Shown in pieces: positions 49,322-58,231 of a stretch of DNA of 64,000 bases. This DNA comes from an archaeon (GTDB lineage Archaea; Thermoproteota; Nitrososphaeria; Conexivisphaerales; UBA164). The stretch is from positions 3,044 to 67,043 of the forward strand of contig JAJYTP010000001.1 of the NCBI GenBank assembly GCA_021792955.1. The letters are read 5' to 3'. Each line of letters opens with the position of its first letter. Position 1 is the first letter of the stretch. Below the pieces are notes generated by a model that was not told where the DNA came from, made no database searches, and worked only from the letters and a program-made list of their open reading frames with translations. Made by a program: the position numbers and the translations under genes.

Positions 49322-49396
49322 AGCCTCGAGCGGGAATTGAACCCGCGACCTTCGCCTTACCAAGGCGACGCTCTAACCAATCTGAGCTATCGAGGC
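49322..49396 (-). tRNA. tRNA-Thr (anticodon GGT)
   Basis: The acceptor stem is gcctcga/tcgaggc, the D arm gctc/gagc, the anticodon arm tcgcc-TTGGTAA-ggcga, and the T arm gcggg-ttcaatt-cccgc. Confidence 0.85.
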
Positions 49397-51742
49397 AATA
49401 TTATGCATCGCCCGGAGGTCCCTTTCGAACGGCTTTAGTTCGTCAGGGATTTTTAAACTTATTGGGTCCTTGAGCGCAAGCTTCCTCTCCTTTTTATAGT
49501 TCCAGACATAACTATTGAACTCCAGCAGCTTATCCGTAAGATCGCTGAGGTCCTTCTCCACCGTGGGCTTTGAAGGGAACATCTCCTTATGGATGGAGGT
49601 CGAGGAATACAGCGTTGTAAATATACGGTCGGACATCATGGGTATGAACGGCGCGATCAGCAGGAGCAGGCTCCTGAGCACTAGGTGTAATGTGAACCAA
49701 GCTCCTCTAACCTCCCTTTCACTGAAGCCGGTTACCCCATATGCCCTGGGCTTCGCCAGTTCAATGTAATGGTCAGCAAACTTGTACCATGTGAAATCGC
49801 GAATCAACAGCATGGCCCTGTTTAACATATAGCTTTCATTTGAGGTCCTGACTTCGTCGATCAACTTGGCCAGCTCTGTTATGATCCACCTATCGCTGTC
49901 CAACAGTTCGTAATCATCGCTTGGGATTGGGAAGGATGAAATCAGCCTGCTTACGTTCCAGAGCTTGGTCAGAAACTTCTGATTTCCTGTCACCCTCTGC
50001 TGTGAGTACCTTATATCCCCCTCCGTTATATTGCCCTCCAAAAACGCCCAGACCCTGAACGCTTCAGCTCCGAACTGGTCCAGCACCTTGTTAGGGTCCA
50101 CCGTGTTGCCGAGGCTTTTGCTCATCTTCTCTCCCTTTTCATCTACGACATGCATATGTATCCATACATCCTTGAAGGGGGCAGCTCCGGTGATCAGATA
50201 GCTCTTCAATAGCGTAAAGTAAAGCCAGCTCCTCACTATCTCCTTTCCCTGTGGCCTTAGCGAAACAGGGAATGCCCTGCCAAACGTATGGCGATCCAGG
50301 GGGTATCCAGTTATATATAGCTCCGTGTTGCTGGAATCAAACCAGGTATCAAATATCCGGCCTTCACCCACGAAGCTTGATCCTCCGCAGGAGGGGCATC
50401 TATTGACCGGCGGATCCTCCTTCCACGGCCTGTAATATTTGCCAGGTGGCGGCGCATAGGTGGCGCCGCAGCTTTTGCAGTACCATAGGGGGATCTCTGT
50501 CCCGTAGTAACGATGTCTCGAAATCACCCAATCGGAGGACAGCCCGTTTATCCAGTCGGTGAGCAGTTTCCTGCTTTCTGGGGCAAAGAATTTCATCCCA
50601 GCTACGGCATCCAGCAACTCCTTTACAAAGGGTAGCTGTTTCAGGTAGATCTCCTTCTGTGGAATGAATTCGATGGGGGTGTGGCTCCTCCAGCAAATTG
50701 GCTGACGATGGACAATCCTTTCCTCCTTAACTACAAGGCCGGCCTTCGCCAGATCGGATGCTATCTCCTCCCTGGCCTCCTTGACCTTCAGTCCGGCGTA
50801 CTTCCCAGACAGCTTGTTCATTCGTCCATCCGGGCCCAGTAGAAAGGTAGGTGCAAGGCCCAGGTCCTTGAACACGGCTATATCCCCCTGATCGCCGTAA
50901 CTGCATATCATAACAAGCCCGCTCCCGTAGTCCGGCTTTGCATATGGATGCCCCCTAATCGGTACCTCCTGGCCAAATAGGGGCACCTTGGCCTTCCTGC
51001 CCTCATAATTCCTGTACCGCTCATCTGCAGGATTGAAGATGATGGCCTTACAGGCAGCCAAAAGTTCAGGCCTGGTGGTGGCTATGATCAAATTTCCGTC
51101 GTCGTCAGCGATTTGGAACCTGATGGAATATAACGTAGTTTCCTCCTCCCGATATTCCACCTCCGCATCGGAGAGCGATGTGCCGCATGCTATACAGTAG
51201 TTGCTTGTGCGCTCGCTTTCATATATGAGCCCCCTTTCAAACAGGTCAAGAAAGATCCTCTGAGTGAGCTTCCGGAATTCAGGATCATCAGTTTCATAGA
51301 GGCCACCCACATCGTGTCCGCGTTTATAACTGTTGAACCCTATTCCGAGTCGCCTGAATGTTTCGTGGGCGGTCTTCGTGTATCTGTTTAGCAGCTCTTC
51401 ACACTTGGCCAGGAACTCCTCGCGTGGCGTCACCCTTATATCCACCTTGTATTCCTTTTCGGTCTGCACTTCGATCGGCAGACCATTTCTGTCAAATCCG
51501 AGGGGGAACAGCACATTATTGCCGGTCATGCGCCTGTATCTTGCTATTGCGTCCATCCAGACGTAGGTATACGCCTGGCCGATATGTATCTGAGTATTTA
51601 TATATGGTGGAGGCGTATCGATGGAATAGACCGGGAGCCCTGACGACTTGTCAAATGAATATAGGTCGTCCCTTTCCCATCCGTCGATGATCGAACTTTC
51701 AATGGCCGTATCCCATCTGGTTTCCTTTATCTTTGGTTCCAT
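49373..51742 (-). CDS. valS: Valyl-tRNA synthetase
   Basis: It carries IDTPPPYINTQIHIGQAYTYVWMDAIARYRRMTGNNVLFPLGFDRNGLPIE and KMSKSLGN. The size is about 790 aa. The last 7 codons and the stop lie inside tRNA-Thr. Confidence 0.88.
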   Translation of the reverse strand: MEPKIKETRWDTAIESSIIDGWERDDLYSFDKSSGLPVYSIDTPPPYINTQIHIGQAYTYVWMDAIARYRRMTGNNVLFPLGFDRNGLPIEVQTEKEYKVDIRVTPREEFLAKCEELLNRYTKTAHETFRRLGIGFNSYKRGHDVGGLYETDDPEFRKLTQRIFLDLFERGLIYESERTSNYCIACGTSLSDAEVEYREEETTLYSIRFQIADDDGNLIIATTRPELLAACKAIIFNPADERYRNYEGRKAKVPLFGQEVPIRGHPYAKPDYGSGLVMICSYGDQGDIAVFKDLGLAPTFLLGPDGRMNKLSGKYAGLKVKEAREEIASDLAKAGLVVKEERIVHRQPICWRSHTPIEFIPQKEIYLKQLPFVKELLDAVAGMKFFAPESRKLLTDWINGLSSDWVISRHRYYGTEIPLWYCKSCGATYAPPPGKYYRPWKEDPPVNRCPSCGGSSFVGEGRIFDTWFDSSNTELYITGYPLDRHTFGRAFPVSLRPQGKEIVRSWLYFTLLKSYLITGAAPFKDVWIHMHVVDEKGEKMSKSLGNTVDPNKVLDQFGAEAFRVWAFLEGNITEGDIRYSQQRVTGNQKFLTKLWNVSRLISSFPIPSDDYELLDSDRWIITELAKLIDEVRTSNESYMLNRAMLLIRDFTWYKFADHYIELAKPRAYGVTGFSEREVRGAWFTLHLVLRSLLLLIAPFIPMMSDRIFTTLYSSTSIHKEMFPSKPTVEKDLSDLTDKLLEFNSYVWNYKKERKLALKDPISLKIPDELKPFERDLRAMHNIASIAQIG

Positions 51743-51749
51743 TTTACCA

Positions 51750-54506
51750 TCAACGCCTATAGCGCAGGAGCGCCCCTATCCCACCAAAGCTCATGAACAT
51801 TACCCCGGCCTCTGACTTGGATGAGATCACTTCAATTTTGCTGCCCACGGCCGTCCCCCTGTCATATAGGTAATCCACTAGATCCTGTGTTTCAAAGTTC
51901 CAGGTGTCCTTACCGCATGTGGGGCACCTGGCATCGCTCATCGTAGTCCTAAACGAAAACATATCGGATTCCTTGACGAAATCCTCCCTATTATATCCAC
52001 AATTTTTACATATGGTTTTTACAAATTTCATATTAAGGTCTTCCGAAATCAGGATCGTATTGGCGCTTGCATCCCTTATGCTGTCAAGCACGGGCTTCAG
52101 GCCGTATACCGCCAGCCCCTTGGGCTTTGATGCCTCCGTTATGAACTGCTCCACGAGCTTCTTCTCCTGTATCACCCTCATGTTTTCCAGAAGCCCCTGT
52201 CCTCTGGTGAGCGTTTCCCTGATCCCCTCTTCACCGGCATAGCCGGTATCGATCTCACCTATGGTCATCTTCTGCAATCTATAATCCATATATTCGCCCT
52301 TGAAAAAATCCTCCTTGGTCATGCCTGGACCGCTGATTATCAGCGCCTTTATTGGCCTATCACCCAGGAATATCTTGGTAGCATGGGCAGCTACCCTGTG
52401 GAAGTAGTCGTTTATTTCGTTCTCCCTTATCCTCTCAAACCTCCTAGCCGACTGACCTCCCTGTCTGTGCTTGCCGCCGACGCCACTGGTTATCACCTGA
52501 ATGACATCTACCCTGTCCCCGGATATAGTCCCGTAGCCCGCCTCGGAGTTGTCCATGGAAAGTATGCCTATCAATTCCTCCTCCCTTAATAATGACCTGA
52601 GGATGTCGAGATGGAAATGGTCGTCGCAATTGTGGACCATAAACCCGTTGGCAAAGAAGGAATGATCCCCTCCATCAAGCGTCAGGTCCCTTACATCGTC
52701 TAGCTCCACCAATTCAGTGGAGACTACGTTCTCCCAGAGGAGGAGCTCATCAGGCCTAACCCTTGAGGCCGCCAGCCACTCAGAATACCCAGATACGGGC
52801 GCCGTTCCTAAAATCGATGTTACAATGCCGCCAGAACTGCGAGTTTGGATCGTTCGCCCTGCAATATTTAGAGAATTGGGGACCCCTAGGATGTCACTGT
52901 CCGAACTTCCTCTGGATACATGGGTAATTTCGGCGCTTGTCGAAGAATGATAATATGCCCTGATTCTCAGATATTCACCCAGGAGCTGCGCCTTTGACGC
53001 CTTCCCTTCCGAATATCTGAATCCCACTGCATGGCATAGCTTCAGTATATTTTCTTCCGTATGATCGAATAGAAGCTCAAATTCAACAGCCCCTGTGTCA
53101 TCCATAAATGAATCCATGGGCCGCGTCATGATGTCGTAGATCTTAATTCCGAAGTTTGTAAATAGGCGCGAAACATCCCGCGCAAATTCCATGCCTTCTT
53201 TATACATTCCTTGGGGCCTGTGGAACACAGCCCTGCCTGAAACTAGATGATCTGAACCCGATATGGCTGGGGCCTGACCGTCCCCACCCATATAGGCCGC
53301 TAGGAACTCCCGCTGAACTTCAGCAGGCGCATTAAACAGCCAATCCGGCACCATAGGCATACCTCCGAGGATATGACCGCGGCCAGCGCCCAGAGCCATT
53401 AATAGCATATAGATCGCTGGGTCTACAACCCTTATGTTGATCGCATTATGGGGCCTGCCCTCAGCGTTCGAGTTACCCTCTGATGCAGTTAGTCCAACCA
53501 GCCGGGTTGCTGCTCTCAAGGACATCAAGTCGGCCCTGATATCCTCTGCGGCTGAGGAATCTTCGGCATAAATGTCAATAGAGTAAACGGGGCGCTGTTT
53601 TCCATCAGTGATCCTGGCCGCAGGGCATGAAGAGCTTTCACTAAGCATATACCCTAGAATACGCGCTACAATAGGTAATTTGGGATTATCGAACTTCAGT
53701 GGCAGAAGCGCCAGCTGTTTTAGCCTTTTAATAGCAACATCGATATCCATTGGAGGATAGTGCGCGCTTTTTATAGGCCCTTCATCAATAACTATTTTGT
53801 CGCCCCCAGGGTCCACTTTCTGGAAGTACATGTCATCTAGAGGATAGACACATACTAGGTCTCCAGGTTTTATATCTACTATATTCTTCCAGCCGGCTGG
53901 CGTAAAAAATGGGTGATCTTCAGTAGCAACTATAGTCCTCCCACTCTCGCTGGTGAGGCGGTAAACCTTCCGCCTTCCTGCCACCGTCCGAATGTAGCCT
54001 TTTATTCGGGCCCCAGTTATCTGCCGCCCATTATCCTTTGTTGACCTTATGGTTTCACGGCTCCATGACGATCCAAGTTGGCCAATGGTCCTTTGCAGCC
54101 CATTCTGCAGGAAGATCCGCGTATCTGGCGAAACGCATCTGTAGAGATATGTAGTAACCGGCTTTGGAGGGACGATTTCATAGGTTCTTATCTCCTCATC
54201 CTTTGTGCTTCCTTCCACAGGAAGCGAACCTCCAAATATGATCAGGCCAGTATCAGGTGGCTGCTTATATAGCTTCAACTTCTGCATTATGCGCGTCAAC
54301 GCGTCCTGCACATGCGTCCTGGTAGTATCGCTTTTGATATTTGACGCCGTCCCGTATTCATCCTTTAGCTCATTTACTACATCGTAAATCGGCTTTTTTG
54401 GCGGAATGTATAGGGATACCAGTTCTGTGCCGTGGCCCGAAATATTCCCTAGCTCCAGCAAAAGCCTCTTTATCTTATACGCCGCAACTGAATTATATTC
54501 ATCCAT
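51750..54506 (-). CDS. prf1: Peptide chain release factor aRF1, interrupted by an in-frame intein
   Basis: NIKS motif (TASNIKS), GGQ motif (HRQGGQSARRF). The exteins total 415 aa and re-join as ...TYLYR|CDDHFHLDIL. Confidence 0.92.
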   Translation of the reverse strand: MDEYNSVAAYKIKRLLLELGNISGHGTELVSLYIPPKKPIYDVVNELKDEYGTASNIKSDTTRTHVQDALTRIMQKLKLYKQPPDTGLIIFGGSLPVEGSTKDEEIRTYEIVPPKPVTTYLYRCVSPDTRIFLQNGLQRTIGQLGSSWSRETIRSTKDNGRQITGARIKGYIRTVAGRRKVYRLTSESGRTIVATEDHPFFTPAGWKNIVDIKPGDLVCVYPLDDMYFQKVDPGGDKIVIDEGPIKSAHYPPMDIDVAIKRLKQLALLPLKFDNPKLPIVARILGYMLSESSSCPAARITDGKQRPVYSIDIYAEDSSAAEDIRADLMSLRAATRLVGLTASEGNSNAEGRPHNAINIRVVDPAIYMLLMALGAGRGHILGGMPMVPDWLFNAPAEVQREFLAAYMGGDGQAPAISGSDHLVSGRAVFHRPQGMYKEGMEFARDVSRLFTNFGIKIYDIMTRPMDSFMDDTGAVEFELLFDHTEENILKLCHAVGFRYSEGKASKAQLLGEYLRIRAYYHSSTSAEITHVSRGSSDSDILGVPNSLNIAGRTIQTRSSGGIVTSILGTAPVSGYSEWLAASRVRPDELLLWENVVSTELVELDDVRDLTLDGGDHSFFANGFMVHNCDDHFHLDILRSLLREEELIGILSMDNSEAGYGTISGDRVDVIQVITSGVGGKHRQGGQSARRFERIRENEINDYFHRVAAHATKIFLGDRPIKALIISGPGMTKEDFFKGEYMDYRLQKMTIGEIDTGYAGEEGIRETLTRGQGLLENMRVIQEKKLVEQFITEASKPKGLAVYGLKPVLDSIRDASANTILISEDLNMKFVKTICKNCGYNREDFVKESDMFSFRTTMSDARCPTCGKDTWNFETQDLVDYLYDRGTAVGSKIEVISSKSEAGVMFMSFGGIGALLRYRR
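52629..54137 (-). mobile_element. Intein (503 aa) with a LAGLIDADG homing-endonuclease domain, inserted in aRF1
   Basis: Block A is CVSPDTRIFL. Block B is IVATEDHPFF. The LAGLIDADG-like motifs are VARILGYMLSESS and REFLAAYMGGDG. The C-terminus is FANGFMVHN, followed by the +1 Cys. Confidence 0.85.
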
Positions 54507-54559: not shown

Positions 54560-55237
54560 TTGATAGCGGTAATAAAGCTTTCAGGTTCCCTGTTCAATGG
54601 CCCAGACGTTTCCGGCATTATTTCCATCGTAAACGTACTAAGGAGCTACCACGCGGCCGGTAACGAGCTCACACTGGTGGTGGGAGGGGGCCTGAGATCG
54701 CGGGAGTACATTTTACTGGGAAGAAAGCTCCATCTCAACGAAAACTACCTGGACGCTATCGGCATTGACGCTACCAGGATCAACGCCAAGCTGATGATCG
54801 GGGCTCTCGGGGAGCTGGCCTTTCCACGTGTCGGGGGGGCGCTCGAAGATGCATCATTAGCTTCCTCAATGAAGAAGATAGGCGTATTCGGCGGGCTGAT
54901 TCCAGGGCACAGCACGAACGCCGTGGCCGCCTTAGTGGCCGAGAGGCTTGGGGCTGATATTTTTGTAAACGCCACGGATGTAGCCGGCGTATTTGATAAG
55001 GATCCACGAAAGCATGGAGATTCCACGCTGCTTAGGCAAGTAAGCGTTGGGCAGCTTCAAGATATACTGAGAAACGGCGAATCCGTAGCCGGTTCGTATG
55101 AACTGATGGACTCACTGGCGTTGCTCATTATTAAACGCTCGCGCATCAGGACGTTGATAACCAGCTATAGCGCTCCAGATATAGAAAAGGCTTTAAGCGG
55201 TCAGAAGATAGGCACAGAGGTAGTATTTAATGAGTGA
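54560..55237 (+). CDS. pyrH: Uridylate kinase (archaeal type, TTG start)
   Basis: It carries IAVIKLSGSLF, VVGGG and ATDVAGVFDKDP. The length is about 225 aa. Confidence 0.85.
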   Translation: MIAVIKLSGSLFNGPDVSGIISIVNVLRSYHAAGNELTLVVGGGLRSREYILLGRKLHLNENYLDAIGIDATRINAKLMIGALGELAFPRVGGALEDASLASSMKKIGVFGGLIPGHSTNAVAALVAERLGADIFVNATDVAGVFDKDPRKHGDSTLLRQVSVGQLQDILRNGESVAGSYELMDSLALLIIKRSRIRTLITSYSAPDIEKALSGQKIGTEVVFNE

Positions 55238-55454
55238 AAAGAAGCCCTCTAAGGTCCACGCGGTGATTCCTCCCCATACCCATTGCAAGGTATGCGGAAA
55301 GGCCATACCGGAGGGACAGATATATTGTAGCAAAGCATGTCATGATAGGGATGAGGGGGCGCGTAAAAGGGAAAGGCGTACCATGTGGATATTCTACGCC
55401 ATATTCTTCGTAGTGATGATAGGGATGTTCCTCTACATCTACGTGATAAGGTAA
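55230..55454 (+). CDS. DUF2116-like zinc-ribbon protein with a C-terminal TM helix
   Basis: It carries HCKVCGKAIPEGQIYCSKACHD, a basic linker, and the hydrophobic stretch IFYAIFFVVMIGMFLYIYVI. Confidence 0.55.
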   Translation: MSEKKPSKVHAVIPPHTHCKVCGKAIPEGQIYCSKACHDRDEGARKRERRTMWIFYAIFFVVMIGMFLYIYVIR

Positions 55455-56039
55455 ACTACTGGTTATAAATGGGCAGGATATATACATGCCACTTCCCTTA
55501 TTGGGTAAAAAGGCCTAGTTTGAAATGTCTTCTTGTTGATGTACATGTTGATATCGGAGAACAGGCTTCAAGTAATAGTGCCCCGGGCGGGAGTCATGGC
55601 CTGAGGTAGAATTCTCTGACATGCCCTTCTCATGTACAATCCTGTTTACATCCTTTTATTTGCCTCCAGAGATCCCATTAAAGCCAATAAGGAATTTTCG
55701 CTGCATTACACGAATCGCCTGCAGCCCTGCACCTATCCACGCTATAAATAACAGCACAGTTTCGTTAGATGCAGCATGCCGCATGGAATACAGTTCTGGG
55801 ATGGCGCCCTCATTGATAAACGCCAAAACTGCTGGTTGAACGAATGGGTTAGGCGTGATGTGGTATGATAGTGGAACAATTTGAAAGGTCCAGGCTGCAT
55901 CAGTATATATGTCAGGCCAAGGGATGAGAAACGACATTTAACACATGGGGGTTTCCCAGGGTTCCTGCTGAGCGTAAGGTCCATTGTACTCTGCGGTGCA
56001 GGTGCCTAGCTCGTTCCCGAGCATGACCAGTACTGTGGC

Positions 56040-56830
56040 GGTGAACACGAAGTAGCTAGGAAGCTCGGGGTGTTGCAGGCAGCCGTAAGCAAGTGGCACA
56101 GCGCATATAGGGATGGTAGAGGTTATGATGCACTCAGGAGCAGGGCCACACAGGCCGCCCTTCTAAGCTGGACGATGGACGGCTGCGGGACCTGCCTTCT
56201 ATCCTGTTAAAGGGCGCTGAGCAGTACGGCTTCTCCACGGACATGTGGACGGGTGAGAGGGTGTCAAGGGTTATGGAGGAGGCATACGTGGGTGCGCTAT
56301 TCACCGTCTCAGGTCGTAAGGATACTCCATTCTCCCAACTTCTCCTGGCAGAAGCCAGAGGGGGTCGCCAGGGAACATGACGAAGAGAAGGTGAGGGAAT
56401 GGGTTAAGGACGAACTGCCAAAGATAAAAAAAAGCTGGATGAAACCGACGGCCTCCTCCTGATAGAGGATGAAACGGGCTCTCCATGATCTCTCTCATGG
56501 GCCGGACATGGGCGCCGGTCGGGAAAACACCCACAATGGAGTACAACTTCAACTGGAAGAGGCTAGCTGCCATGGGTGGAATAACGCTGGAGGGAAGAAT
56601 ATACTCCAGGGTCCATAACGTAACCATCAGGCAGGAGCAGGTAATGGATTACCTCGTACAGCTGTAAAAAACATATAAGAAATCGGCACGTTGTCCTCCT
56701 GTGGGATGGATCCCCAACTCACATGGCGAAAGCGGTGTTCTCCGAGGTATGGGAGTACGCTTACCTATCCCTCGGCAGGATGTATAAGAGGTGGCATCAG
56801 AAGGAGCATACAGGAAAATAAAGGAGTATA
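56040..56830 (+). mobile_element. IS630-family transposase remnant with several frameshifts and stops and a truncated DDE domain
   Basis: The pieces lie in three frames. They are AAVSKWHSAYRDG..YDAL, GRPSKLDDGRLRDL..LLKGAEQYGFSTDMWTGERV, VRYSPSQVVRILH..FSWQKPEGVAREHDEEKVREW, and DETGSPMISLMGRTWAPVGKTPT. Confidence 0.7.
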
Positions 56831-56974
56831 ATAAGCGCAGGAATTTCAGTCCTCAATATATGGATTAACCCTGTTCCTTACATAGTGGCACGATGAACAT
56901 CATCGGTGAGCGTAGTGCGGGAAGCCTGCACGTTCGACGAGGGGCCGCAGAGTAAGACCTGCGGTCTACTCTAT

Positions 56975-58231
56975 CTATGTGTAGTTTGGATATGGTGGGA
57001 TAATGATTTTTGAGGTAGCAAGATTTGAAGGATACACGGTGTATAATGTGCCATTTTGCCATTGGACAATTACAGGTTCAGCATCAACATTAGTTCCAAT
57101 AGAGTTAAAATGTATCTCATTTTCTGGTAAAATTCCTCCTGGGAATGTTGATGTGTGTAATGTTTCATCTATAGTAACTGGATTTGCTGAATGAGCAAGA
57201 TTTATTGCATCAGCTATCACTATAACTGCTTGATAATAAGCCCCCGCTGCTTCTGGCATAAAATAACCATATTTTTGTTCATATTGCGCGTTAACTTGCA
57301 TAGCCAAGGATTTGTTTTCATAAGCGTTATATGCTGCAGCAGTAAAGATAAGATTAGAGTAGTTACCCACTTGACTATAAAATTGGGGTAATGGAAAGCC
57401 ACCAGATCCACCTATAATAGGGATGTTTAACCCTGCTTGGCGTAGCCCTTCTACTATTAACGTTGAATCATTTAGGTATGATGCTTCCAATATTATTTGT
57501 GGTTTTGCTGCTTGGACCGCTTCTACTATTGGCCCTGCACTAGTAAAATTACTTGTAGAATATGGATCAACTGAAACTACTTGATAAAAGGGATTACTAC
57601 TCACATCTGCTTGTACTGCTTGAGCTACTCCAGCGCCATAAGCGTCATTATCATATATAATAGCTACCCTTGATGCATTAAACCCCATTGATTTCAACGT
57701 TAAAAGAAAATTGTACATTGTGTTTCCAAATACTGTTGCATTAGGTGCTATTCTGAATCCGTAGGTATAATTTAATGAAGTCGCAATATTGGAAAAAGCT
57801 ACAAATATTAAAGGAATTTGGTATTTTTGGAAAAGTGGTAAAACAGGTAGAGTTAATCCACTAGAATAAAGCCCAACGGCCGCAGATATATTTTTATGCG
57901 TTGAAAGAAAGTTCTGAACTATGCTGTAAGCTTGGGTGGAGGAGCTTGTAGTATCAACAGAAATTATAGTTATGTTTGCCCCCTTTAATCCCCCGTAATT
58001 GTTAATATTTTGTGCCGCAAGTTCTGCAGCTTGTAAGCAAGTTATTCCAAAATATGATAAGGAACCACTAAGTGGAAAGAAAGCTGCCACATAGACAGTT
58101 TTAATTGGTTTGGGCGCAGTGACACTTTTGTAATAATATCCACCACCTATTGTCGCAACGACAATTACTATTATTACAACTACAACTACAGTAATTTTAG
58201 AAATAGACCTGTGGCGATTTTTTTGGTACAT
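56975..58231 (-). CDS. ABC-transporter substrate-binding protein, LivJ/LivK (branched-chain amino acid) type, N-terminally membrane-anchored
   Basis: The TM anchor is ITVVVVVIIVIVVATIGGG. VYVAAFFPLSGSLSYFGITCLQAAELAAQNIN matches the type-1 periplasmic binding protein family. It is visibly AT-richer than its neighbours. Confidence 0.7.
   Translation of the reverse strand: MYQKNRHRSISKITVVVVVIIVIVVATIGGGYYYKSVTAPKPIKTVYVAAFFPLSGSLSYFGITCLQAAELAAQNINNYGGLKGANITIISVDTTSSSTQAYSIVQNFLSTHKNISAAVGLYSSGLTLPVLPLFQKYQIPLIFVAFSNIATSLNYTYGFRIAPNATVFGNTMYNFLLTLKSMGFNASRVAIIYDNDAYGAGVAQAVQADVSSNPFYQVVSVDPYSTSNFTSAGPIVEAVQAAKPQIILEASYLNDSTLIVEGLRQAGLNIPIIGGSGGFPLPQFYSQVGNYSNLIFTAAAYNAYENKSLAMQVNAQYEQKYGYFMPEAAGAYYQAVIVIADAINLAHSANPVTIDETLHTSTFPGGILPENEIHFNSIGTNVDAEPVIVQWQNGTLYTVYPSNLATSKIIIPPYPNYT

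What the first reader, a model, noticed from the sequence alone, without database searches (positions are those of the whole stretch)
52629..54137. LAGLIDADG intein inside the aRF1 (translation termination factor) gene
The 918-aa ORF is aRF1 with NIKS and GGQ motifs plus a 503-aa insertion. The insertion starts with Cys (CVSPDTRIFL). It has a TxxH-type block B (ATEDHPFF) and two LAGLIDADG-like motifs (ILGYMLSESS, LAAYMGGDG). It ends in VHN, followed by Cys. Removing it restores the conserved aRF1 sequence YLYR-CDDHFHLDIL. Inteins usually sit in replication or nucleotide-metabolism proteins, and a release-factor host is uncommon to my knowledge. The insertion lies at the boundary between the stop-codon-recognition domain and the GGQ domain. 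Unspliced precursor should therefore be non-functional, which would couple translation termination to splicing.
Basis: partly seen in the sequence, partly recalled or inferred. Interest (0 to 1): 0.6.

Follow-up and report, generated by a model that had tools for sequence, protein, structure and literature searches.

The report
Mobile intein splitting archaeal release factor aRF1
The only gene found for the stop-codon release factor aRF1 in this archaeon is interrupted, inside the motif that reads stop codons, by a standard self-splicing intein that came in by horizontal transfer; it is an ordinary kind of selfish element at a host site I found described in no paper.

Summary
Window 52629..54137 (-) encodes a 503-aa class-1 intein inside a 918-aa aRF1 ORF (51750..54506, -). 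All the splicing residues are present: Cys1, block B TxxH, blocks F and G, His-Asn, and Cys+1. Intein models score above their curated cut-offs. Removing the insert gives a 415-aa aRF1 that aligns without a break to solved aRF1 and eRF1. All 30 intein-free genes I read from sampled relatives show ..LYR|CDDHF.. uninterrupted.

It lies inside the YxCxxxF stop-codon-recognition motif, and the motif's Cys (human eRF1 C127) is the +1 nucleophile.

The same-site intein occurs in at least 69 protein clusters from Nitrososphaerota/Thaumarchaeota metagenomes. A second aRF1 site, after GGQ, is occupied in other genomes but empty here. This scan has noted GGQ-site aRF1 inteins before in other archaea, but not this site.

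The intein and host trees conflict strongly, so this genus gained the intein horizontally. Since then the splicing domain has stayed conserved. The LAGLIDADG endonuclease keeps both catalytic acids but has drifted a great deal.

A regulatory link between splicing and termination is untested. I found no paper on a natural aRF1/eRF1 intein. Verdict: a real intein, a new member of a known kind, of moderate interest.

The parts
51750..54506 (-). aRF1 precursor ORF, 918 aa plus stop codon. It is the only aRF1 gene found in the 73%-complete genome.
   Evidence: (TIGR03676 421 bits)
54138..54506 (-). N-extein, aa 1-123 (aRF1 N domain up to ..YLYR). It includes NIKS at 54330..54341.
   Evidence: (eRF1_1, aa 14-123)
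54138..54149 (-). YLYR: the first half of the YxCxxxF stop-codon-recognition motif, and the -1 side of the splice junction.
52629..54137 (-). Intein, 503 aa (protein residues 124-626).
54099..54137 (-). Intein block A (CVSPDTRIFLQNG). Cys1 is invariant in all 69 same-site inteins.
53901..53942 (-). Intein block B (GRTIVATEDHPFFT). T195 and H198 form the TxxH motif and are invariant.
53631..53675 (-). First LAGLIDADG helix (PIVARILGYMLSESS). The catalytic acid is Glu290, where the family consensus has Asp. Ser291 replaces the near-invariant Gly.
   Evidence: (helix 277-287)
53268..53318 (-). Second LAGLIDADG helix (VQREFLAAYMGGDGQAP). The catalytic Asp409 is kept.
   Evidence: (helix 395-409)
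52788..52955 (-). Degenerate segment (aa 518-573), mostly modelled at low confidence, at the place where other-lineage copies conserve an HTH-like pattern.
   Evidence: 531-569 below pLDDT 50; 37% identity to P0002 over 521-585; weak, sub-cut-off HTH_23/Sigma70_r4 match at the corresponding place in a distant family member, L078
52650..52697 (-). Intein block F (DVRDLTLDGGDHSFFA).
52629..52649 (-). Intein block G (NGFMVHN), with penultimate His625 and terminal Asn626.
   Evidence: (TIGR01443)
52614..52628 (-). CDDHF: the +1 Cys nucleophile plus the rest of the YxCxxxF motif.
51753..52628 (-). C-extein, aa 627-918: the end of the N domain plus the M and C domains.
   Evidence: eRF1_2 at 646-773, eRF1_3 at 778-917
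52449..52460 (-). GGQS: the catalytic GGQ motif. This is the second known aRF1 intein site (GGQ|S), and it is empty in this gene.

Best explanation
This is a canonical class-1 intein with an embedded double-motif LAGLIDADG homing-endonuclease domain. It sits in the only aRF1 gene found in a Nitrososphaerota (Thaumarchaeota-type) MAG, between Arg123 and the conserved Cys of the YxCxxxF stop-codon-recognition motif.

Mechanism (inferred from the residues, not assayed):
1. An N-S acyl shift at Arg123-Cys124 forms a thioester.
2. Cys627 (+1) attacks it by trans-thioesterification.
3. Asn626 cyclises, helped by His625, and releases the 503-aa intein.
4. An S-N shift rebuilds the peptide bond. The product is a 415-aa aRF1 with YLYR-CDDHF restored.

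The precursor carries 503 aa inside the decoding motif, so it is presumably inactive. Because no other aRF1 gene was found in any of the three genomes of the genus, splicing must be efficient.

History: the element belongs to a family that occupies this same site in many Nitrososphaerota aRF1 genes. An ancestor of the window's genus acquired it horizontally, by homing, from a different aRF1-intein-bearing lineage. Since then it has been inherited vertically and is present in every sampled member of the genus. The splicing (Hint) module remains under strong constraint. The endonuclease part is relaxed and has diverged heavily. It is probably weakened or retargeted, and whether it is still active is unknown.
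For: **Identity.** Intein and aRF1 HMMs score above their curated cut-offs. The insert shows sequence similarity to solved DnaB mini-inteins in both splicing halves. In the AF2 model of the precursor most of the intein is modelled at pLDDT of about 80-90, with two alpha-beta-beta-alpha-beta-beta-alpha subdomains. Foldseek matches it to TliVMA 7qss (E 8e-14), PhoVMA 7qst, PI-PfuI 1dq3 and PI-SceI 1vde, and matches the exteins to 4af1 and eRF1 structures.

**Splicing residues.** C1, T..H, H-N and C+1 are invariant across 46 aligned full-length homologues and 69 same-site inteins.

**Empty sites.** Thirty of 30 intein-free genes read from relatives show ..LYR|CDDHF... In total, 35 of 38 sampled relatives with an aRF1 match have an uninterrupted gene.

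**Site.** The junction maps to eRF1 Y125-x-C127-xxx-F131. The role of this motif in stop-codon decoding is described in PMC3632111 and PMC4381064.

**Sole copy.** The own genome has one aRF1 plus a pelota-like gene. The two congeners show the same picture.

**Horizontal gain.** In the extein tree the genus nests (99*) among intein-free relatives of its own family. In the intein tree, rooted on RtcB, RpoB and Trx inteins, it nests (99*) inside clade A of another lineage. AU tests reject 'the other 56 inteins form one clade' (p 2.5e-6). They also reject 'hosts of the partner inteins plus this genus form one clade' (p 2e-43) and 'all intein-bearing aRF1 form one clade' (p 0.002).

**Gradient of constraint.** Against P0002, dN/dS is 0.015-0.035 for the exteins, about 0.10 for Hint, and 0.21 for the HEN core. 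The 521-585 segment has saturated synonymous change and only 37% identity, so no ratio could be computed. Against the congeners, dN/dS is 0.03-0.05 for the exteins and 0.30 for the intein.

**Conserved-column test.** Among columns at least 90% conserved in the other lineage, this copy departs at 2 of 43 Hint columns but at 30 of 80 HEN columns. The HEN departures include D290E and G291S in LAGLIDADG-1 and several basic residues.
Against: - No splicing or cleavage experiment exists for this or any aRF1 intein that I could find.
- Pfam LAGLIDADG_3 matches only weakly (13.5 bits against a cut-off of 22.5).
- The genome is 73% complete, so a second, intein-free aRF1 cannot be excluded.
- The AU-tested groups were named after I had seen the trees, and both trees come from the 'quick' search.
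- dS against P0002 is near saturation.
- Part of the HEN divergence could reflect retargeting to this lineage's own DNA sequence and not decay. A dN/dS of 0.2-0.3 shows the HEN is not evolving freely.
Confidence: 0.88

Rival explanations
1. The endonuclease is still fully active, and the intein is currently mobile in present-day populations. It would then not be a fixed element with a decaying nuclease.
For: Both catalytic acids are kept (E290, D409). The ORF is intact and full length in at least four diverged assemblies. HEN-core dN/dS is 0.2-0.3, clearly below 1. The family as a whole has moved between lineages.
Against: Thirty of 80 otherwise conserved HEN columns are changed, including Gly291 to Ser in the first LAGLIDADG motif and several conserved basic residues. 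The HTH-like module is modelled at low confidence and has only 37% identity to P0002. All sampled genomes of the genus already carry the intein, so no empty target is visible on which selection could maintain homing.
Confidence: 0.35
2. The intein is a conditional (environment-sensing) splicing switch that tunes the supply of active release factor. One possible form is a Cys1/Cys+1 disulfide or a temperature dependence, as reported for other archaeal inteins.
For: The insert lies in a functionally critical motif of an essential, apparently single-copy factor. Both junction nucleophiles are Cys. Conditional splicing is documented for other archaeal inteins (review PMC10663303). The Hint domain is strongly conserved.
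Against: There is no direct evidence. Placement in a conserved motif is the usual consequence of homing-site selection. Sister genera and 35 sampled relatives manage without the intein. The patchy, horizontally acquired distribution fits a selfish element. Conservation of the Hint domain is expected simply because failure to splice would destroy aRF1.
Confidence: 0.07
3. The 503 aa are a lineage-specific aRF1 domain that is not spliced out, or else an assembly or binning chimera.
For: None beyond the absence of protein-level data.
Against: All splicing blocks are present and invariant. Intein HMMs score above their cut-offs. The fold matches solved inteins. The insert would break the YxCxxxF motif. 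The same gene with the same neighbours (AA_kinase, aRF1-intein, class-I aaRS) appears in independent assemblies from GenBank MAGs, JGI and Logan.
Confidence: 0.01

Closest known systems
RtcB (Hyp-2) inteins of archaea, as modelled by NCBIfam NF038162 'intein-containing RtcB family protein'
   Same: They belong to the same large (about 500 aa) intein family. The whole 503 aa aligns to the intein part of that model (165 bits). RtcB inteins in Nitrososphaeria and many other phyla are 22-29% identical over the full length. They share Hint blocks, two LAGLIDADG motifs and the position of the HTH-like segment.
   Different: The host protein and insertion site differ (RtcB GYDIN|CGVRL against aRF1 YLYR|CDDHF). 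Identity is low. The window's copy has a degenerate HTH-like segment.
Structurally solved homing-endonuclease inteins: TliVMA/PhoVMA (7qss, 7qst), PI-PfuI (1dq3) and PI-SceI (1vde, 1lws)
   Same: The architecture is the same: a Hint splicing domain interrupted by a double LAGLIDADG endonuclease. The Foldseek hits range from E 8e-14 to 2e-8. Cys1 and the His-Asn end are the same; the +1 residues of the solved inteins were not compared.
   Different: Sequence identity is only 11-14%. The hosts differ (V-ATPase, RNR). Activity has been shown experimentally for those inteins and not for this one.
   Same: The host protein is the same, and the logic is the same: insertion into a catalytic or decoding motif, with the next residue serving as nucleophile. 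Some proteins carry both inteins (about 1450 aa).
   Different: The site differs (after GGQ, with Ser+1). The intein lineage differs (HTH_3 plus LAGLIDADG_3 Pfam matches). That site is empty in the window's gene.
Canonical aRF1/eRF1 (TIGR03676; 4af1, 1dt9)
   Same: The spliced product has NIKS, YxCxxxF and GGQ and all three domains. It aligns end to end with these proteins.
   Different: The gene is interrupted by the intein. In this lineage the C domain carries an invariant four-Cys cluster.

Membership tests
Class-1 intein (Hint superfamily) | Cys, Ser or Thr nucleophile at intein position 1 | tested here: met
   Cys124. It is Cys in all 69 same-site inteins.
Class-1 intein (Hint superfamily) | Block B TxxH motif | tested here: met
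   T195-E-D-H198. T and H are invariant in 46 sequences.
Class-1 intein (Hint superfamily) | C-terminal His-Asn followed by a Cys, Ser or Thr +1 residue | tested here: met
   H625-N626|C627, invariant. TIGR01443 scores 26.2 bits against a cut-off of 15.6.
Class-1 intein (Hint superfamily) | Profile matches above curated thresholds | tested here: met
   PF14890 scores 42.3 against 35.8. TIGR01445 scores 44.6 against 24.5.
Class-1 intein (Hint superfamily) | Removal restores a contiguous host protein, and orthologues with an empty site exist | tested here: met
   The extein aligns continuously to 4af1 and eRF1. Thirty of 30 intein-free relatives read ..LYR|CDDHF...
Class-1 intein (Hint superfamily) | Hint fold | tested here: met
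   In the AF2 model the Hint parts have pLDDT of about 80-90. Foldseek hits solved inteins. Both are predictions only.
Class-1 intein (Hint superfamily) | Protein splicing demonstrated | not testable with these tools
   This needs expression or proteomics. It is inferred from the intein sitting in the sole aRF1 copy of three genomes.
LAGLIDADG homing endonuclease (double-motif, intein-embedded) | Two LAGLIDADG helices at the subdomain interface | tested here: met
   ILGYMLSES lies at the end of model helix 277-287, and LAAYMGGDG lies in model helix 395-409.
LAGLIDADG homing endonuclease (double-motif, intein-embedded) | Acidic catalytic residue at the end of each motif | tested here: met
   E290 (family consensus Asp) and D409. 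The neighbouring Gly291 is Ser in this copy.
LAGLIDADG homing endonuclease (double-motif, intein-embedded) | Profile match above threshold | tested here: not met
   PF14528 LAGLIDADG_3 scores 13.5 bits against a cut-off of 22.5. Fold-level similarity to PI-PfuI, PI-SceI and TliVMA partly compensates.
LAGLIDADG homing endonuclease (double-motif, intein-embedded) | Site-specific DNA cleavage or evidence of mobility | tested here: inconclusive
   Past mobility of the family is shown by the conflict between the intein and host trees. Present activity of this copy is untested, and 30 of 80 conserved HEN columns are changed.
aRF1/eRF1 class-I release factor (TIGR03676) | Equivalog score above cut-off, three domains, and the NIKS, YxCxxxF and GGQ motifs | tested here: met
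   421 bits against 234.7. eRF1_1, eRF1_2 and eRF1_3 all match. The motifs are located.

The most novel reading that the evidence does not exclude
The intein acts as a post-translational gate on translation termination. Because it splits the stop-codon-reading motif of the only release factor found, any condition that slows splicing (oxidation of the Cys1/Cys+1 pair, temperature, metal ions) would lower active aRF1 and raise stop-codon read-through or ribosome pausing across the whole proteome. Together with the same family's presence in uS12, RtcB and RpoB, this would amount to an intein-based layer of control over gene expression in Nitrososphaerota.
Probability: 0.07. Interest if true: 0.75.

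Novelty: new member of a known kind. Interest (0 to 1): 0.38.

Why it matters
Surveys of inteins stress replication, repair and nucleotide-metabolism proteins. Novikova et al. 2016 (PMC4760082) state that core translation components carry few inteins, and their main text names no release factor.

This finding gives aRF1 a documented intein site inside its stop-codon-decoding motif. Together with the GGQ site, both hallmark functional motifs of the archaeal release factor turn out to be intein targets.

The locus also gives a clean natural example of the homing cycle. The intein was gained horizontally and then fixed in one genus. Its splicing domain is conserved while its endonuclease drifts.

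In practice, annotation pipelines name these roughly 920-aa proteins simply 'aRF-1'. Unless the intein is removed first, it will distort alignments and marker-gene trees that include aRF1.

The family (same site, about 60 full-length and 8 mini versions) also offers new Cys1/Cys+1 inteins for protein-engineering screens.

Tried and rejected
**Literature.** Eight full-text searches found no natural aRF1/eRF1 intein. Two of them served other purposes: one retrieved the Novikova survey and one confirmed the YxCxxxF motif. The pairings tried were intein with aRF1, eRF1, 'peptide chain release factor', Thaumarchaeota, Nitrososphaer* and 'ribosomal protein S12'. The aRF1 hits were the ARF1 GTPase, and the eRF1 hits were genetic-code-expansion papers. 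The Bodo saltans virus paper mentions eRF1 and inteins separately, not together. The supplements of Novikova 2016 are not held, so their full host list could not be checked. The Anaeramoeba intein paper does not mention eRF1.

**Earlier scan notes.** A look-up by sequence found no look-alike of this intein. A look-up by words found only GGQ-site cases.

**Foreign origin from base composition.** GC is 0.50 in the intein and 0.49 in the extein, which is uninformative. GC3 differs (0.50 against 0.59), but this may reflect codon bias in the host gene.

**A second, intein-free aRF1 in the genome.** Only a pelota-like match was found.

**An RNA gene in the ORF-poor stretch at 55.5-57.0 kb.** There is no Rfam match. 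The stretch holds transposase remnants instead.
Full report
**1. Observation**

The minus-strand ORF at 51750..54506 encodes 918 aa. The peptide CVSPDTRIFL begins at residue 124 and ..FMVHN ends at residue 626.

The whole protein matches the aRF1 equivalog TIGR03676 at 421 bits (cut-off 234.7) and all three eRF1 Pfam domains. The eRF1_1 match stops at residue 123 and the eRF1_2 match starts at 646.

The insert matches several intein models above their curated cut-offs:
- Pfam Intein_splicing: 42.3 bits against 35.8.
- TIGR01445 (intein N-terminus): 44.6 against 24.5.
- TIGR01443 (intein C-terminus): 26.2 against 15.6.

Over its full length the insert aligns to the intein segment of NF038162, the intein-containing RtcB model, at 165 bits. 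Both splicing halves resemble the solved DnaB mini-inteins 1mi8 and 4o1r.

**2. Anatomy**

The splicing blocks are complete:
- Block A: Cys124.
- Block B: T195-E-D-H198.
- Block F: DVRDLTLDGGDHSFFA.
- Block G: NGFMVHN, followed by Cys627.

Across 46 aligned full-length homologues, C124, T195, D197, H198, H625, N626 and C627 are invariant.

I modelled the precursor with AlphaFold2 using that alignment (mean pLDDT 72). Most of the intein is modelled at about 80-90. It shows two alpha-beta-beta-alpha-beta-beta-alpha subdomains, whose leading helices (277-287 and 395-409) correspond to the two LAGLIDADG-like motifs. Residues 531-569 are modelled at very low confidence. The interrupted aRF1 N domain is modelled poorly, at about 50.

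Foldseek against the PDB returns two groups of hits:
- For the exteins: aRF1/eRF1 structures (4af1, 3jag, 1dt9 and others; E 1e-19 to 1e-13).
- For the insert: homing-endonuclease inteins, namely TliVMA 7qss (8e-14), PhoVMA 7qst (8e-11), PI-PfuI 1dq3 (2e-9) and PI-SceI 1vde (2e-8).

**3. The site**

The joined exteins (415 aa) align end to end with Halobacterium aRF1 (4af1, E 5e-72) and with mammalian eRF1 (E 2e-67). There is no gap at the junction. The window's ..TTYLYR|CDDHFHLDIL.. lies over eRF1's ..TSLYLCDNKFHTEAL...

Allowing for the 6-residue offset of that chain, Y122, C124 and F128 of the spliced product correspond to human Y125, C127 and F131. This is the YxCxxxF motif, which is implicated in stop-codon recognition (PMC3632111, PMC4381064).

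The intein therefore sits inside the decoding motif and uses the motif's Cys as its +1 nucleophile.

**4. Empty sites and copy number**

I sampled 41 genomes: the window's own and 40 relatives from the same genus, family, order and class.
- 38 have an aRF1 match above the cut-off.
- 35 of these have one uninterrupted match.
- Only the three genomes of the window's genus have the split match, in a 923-codon open frame.

I read 30 of the uninterrupted genes. All encode ..(Y/F/S/N)LYR|CDDHF.. contiguously.

The intein itself is 89% identical in the two congeners and has no close homologue in the other 38 genomes.

The own genome (1.17 Mb, 70 contigs, 73% complete) has no second aRF1, only a pelota-like gene. 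The congeners (82% and 74% complete) look the same. Splicing competence is therefore inferred from necessity. It has not been shown directly.

**5. Distribution**

A search of the 5.8-billion-protein collection returned 96 clusters. Where a source names them, the names are Nitrososphaerales or Thaumarchaeota MAGs. JGI labels several 'peptide subunit release factor 1 (eRF1)/intein/homing endonuclease'.

Junction parsing gave the following:
- 69 clusters carry an intein at this same site. All have Cys1 and ..HN|CDDH.
- 61 of these are full length (488-513 aa).
- 8 are shortened (186-251 aa).

A second site lies directly after GGQ (..HN|SARRYER..). It holds a different intein that has HTH_3 and LAGLIDADG_3 Pfam matches. 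Proteins of about 1450 aa carry both inteins. In the window's gene that second site is empty (GGQSARRF).

A scan of GTDB species genomes found the site-a intein in about a dozen species (L055-L063, L065, L093, L104). Their titles read Thaumarchaeota, Nitrososphaerota, Nitrosopumilales or Nitrososphaerales MAGs. The two congeners are 'archaeon TL1-5.bin24' and 'Nitrososphaerota archaeon FK4_bin.88'.

More distant members of the same intein family (22-32% identity, full length) occupy other hosts in many archaeal and some bacterial phyla:
- RtcB, at three different sites.
- RpoB.
- Ribosomal protein uS12.
- Thioredoxin, at its CGPC active site.
- A ThDP enzyme.
- A DUF362 protein.

**6. History**

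I built an aRF1 (extein-only) tree of 59 intein-bearing and 30 intein-free genes. It places the window's genus, with 99% SH-aLRT support, beside 12 intein-free genes from its own family. The other 56 intein-bearing genes form a separate clade.

In the intein tree, rooted on RtcB, RpoB and Trx inteins, the genus's inteins instead nest with 99% support inside a 13-member subclade of that other lineage.

AU tests reject three hypotheses:
- The 56 other inteins form one clade (p 2.5e-6).
- The genus plus the hosts of its intein partners form one host clade (p 2e-43).
- All intein-bearing hosts form one clade (p 0.002).

Two caveats apply. The groups were defined after I had seen the trees, and the trees come from quick searches. 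With those caveats, the simplest reading is a horizontal gain by the ancestor of this genus, as expected for homing.

**7. Present state**

Against the congeners, dS is similar in intein and exteins (0.17 against 0.13-0.16). This fits co-inheritance since they diverged. dN/dS is 0.03-0.05 in the exteins and 0.30 in the intein.

I also compared the window's gene with a more distant carrier, P0002, using DNA from L135. That gene has the same neighbours. Its exteins are 95% identical to the window's and its intein 59% identical. The values by region are:

| Region | dN/dS |
|---|---|
| Exteins | 0.015-0.035 |
| Hint N and Hint C | about 0.10 |
| HEN core | 0.21 |
| Residues 521-585 | not computable: synonymous changes saturated, 37% identity |

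I then took the columns that are at least 90% conserved in the 43 sequences of the other lineage and counted where the window's protein departs from them:
- 37 of 171 extein columns. This is the background level of divergence between the lineages.
- 2 of 43 Hint columns, both conservative changes.
- 30 of 80 HEN columns. These include D290E and G291S in the first LAGLIDADG motif and several conserved basic residues (for example R300, R349, R361, K379, K468, R479).

Both catalytic acids (E290, D409) remain. I read this as a splicing module kept by selection and an endonuclease that is relaxed. The endonuclease may be retargeted, weakened or on the way to loss. Its current activity cannot be settled by computation.

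**8. Regulation**

The precursor should be unable to decode stop codons, both nucleophiles are Cys, and conditional splicing is known elsewhere (PMC10663303). However, nothing here supports regulation over plain parasitism. Close relatives lack the intein, and its distribution is patchy and horizontal. I give this reading about 7%.

**9. Novelty**

I found no paper describing a natural intein in aRF1 or eRF1. Automated annotation already recognises some of these proteins as intein-containing.

Earlier notes of this scan report many aRF1 inteins at the GGQ site, mainly in DPANN archaea, and those agents also found no paper. None of those notes concerns the YxCxxxF site, and none resembles this sequence.

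This is therefore a new member of a known kind: a new host site, with a well-resolved history of horizontal gain followed by relaxation of the endonuclease. It is not a new mechanism.

**10. Limits**

There are no protein-level data.

Noticed in passing
L050:1270-3252 (+) and L051 (genomes G051 and G066, same class as the window): Ribosomal protein uS12 (Pfam S12/S23, 140 bits) is split by a roughly 500-aa intein of the same family at ..PNSAIRK|C..GN|CVRVQL.., in the conserved decoding-centre loop. A full-text search for intein plus 'ribosomal protein S12' found no paper describing this.
   Followed up: partly
L069, L070 and L079 (Nanoarchaeota and Micrarchaeota MAGs): Thioredoxin is interrupted by a full-length intein of this family exactly at its CGPC active site (..W|C..HN|CGPC..). 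The redox-active Cys would then also be the +1 splicing nucleophile.
   Followed up: partly
P0003, P0007, P0015 and others (about 1450 aa); P0072-P0091 (about 943 aa): Other Nitrososphaerota aRF1 genes carry a second, unrelated intein (HTH_3 plus LAGLIDADG_3) directly after GGQ (..HN|SARRYER..). Some carry both inteins, so both hallmark motifs of aRF1 are intein sites.
   Followed up: partly
G000:C13:70536-70919 (L004) and G000:C21:73990-74289 (L005): The same genome has two more inteins, both short, with no room for an endonuclease domain. One is in family-B DNA polymerase at the YGD|..|TDS motif. The other is in V-ATPase subunit A at the P-loop GTGK|C..HN|T. Both are classical intein sites.
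   Followed up: partly
window 51912..52010 (-), aRF1 residues 833-865: The aRF1 C domain contains a four-Cys cluster (CxxC...CxxC) that is invariant in all 46 aligned Nitrososphaerota aRF1 sequences. It looks like a zinc ribbon. Halobacterium aRF1 (4af1) has only part of it in the alignment.
   Followed up: no
window about 55460..56970, especially 56253..56667 (+): This 1.5-kb stretch has no intact gene. Broken frames match HTH_33 (44.6 bits) and DDE_3 (20.7 bits), which suggests remnants of a transposase with HTH_33 and DDE_3 domains. There is no Rfam match.
   Followed up: partly
window 56975..58231 (-): A gene for a periplasmic-binding-protein type solute receptor (Peripla_BP_6) has clearly lower GC (about 0.36) than its surroundings (about 0.50). 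It may have been acquired recently.
   Followed up: no
window 49373..51742 (-) and 54560..55454 (+): The neighbourhood is conserved. The aRF1 stop codon is followed 7 nt later by a class-I aminoacyl-tRNA synthetase gene (789 aa). An AA_kinase (uridylate-kinase-like) gene and a DUF2116 gene are transcribed divergently. The same order appears on the contigs that carry P0002.
   Followed up: partly
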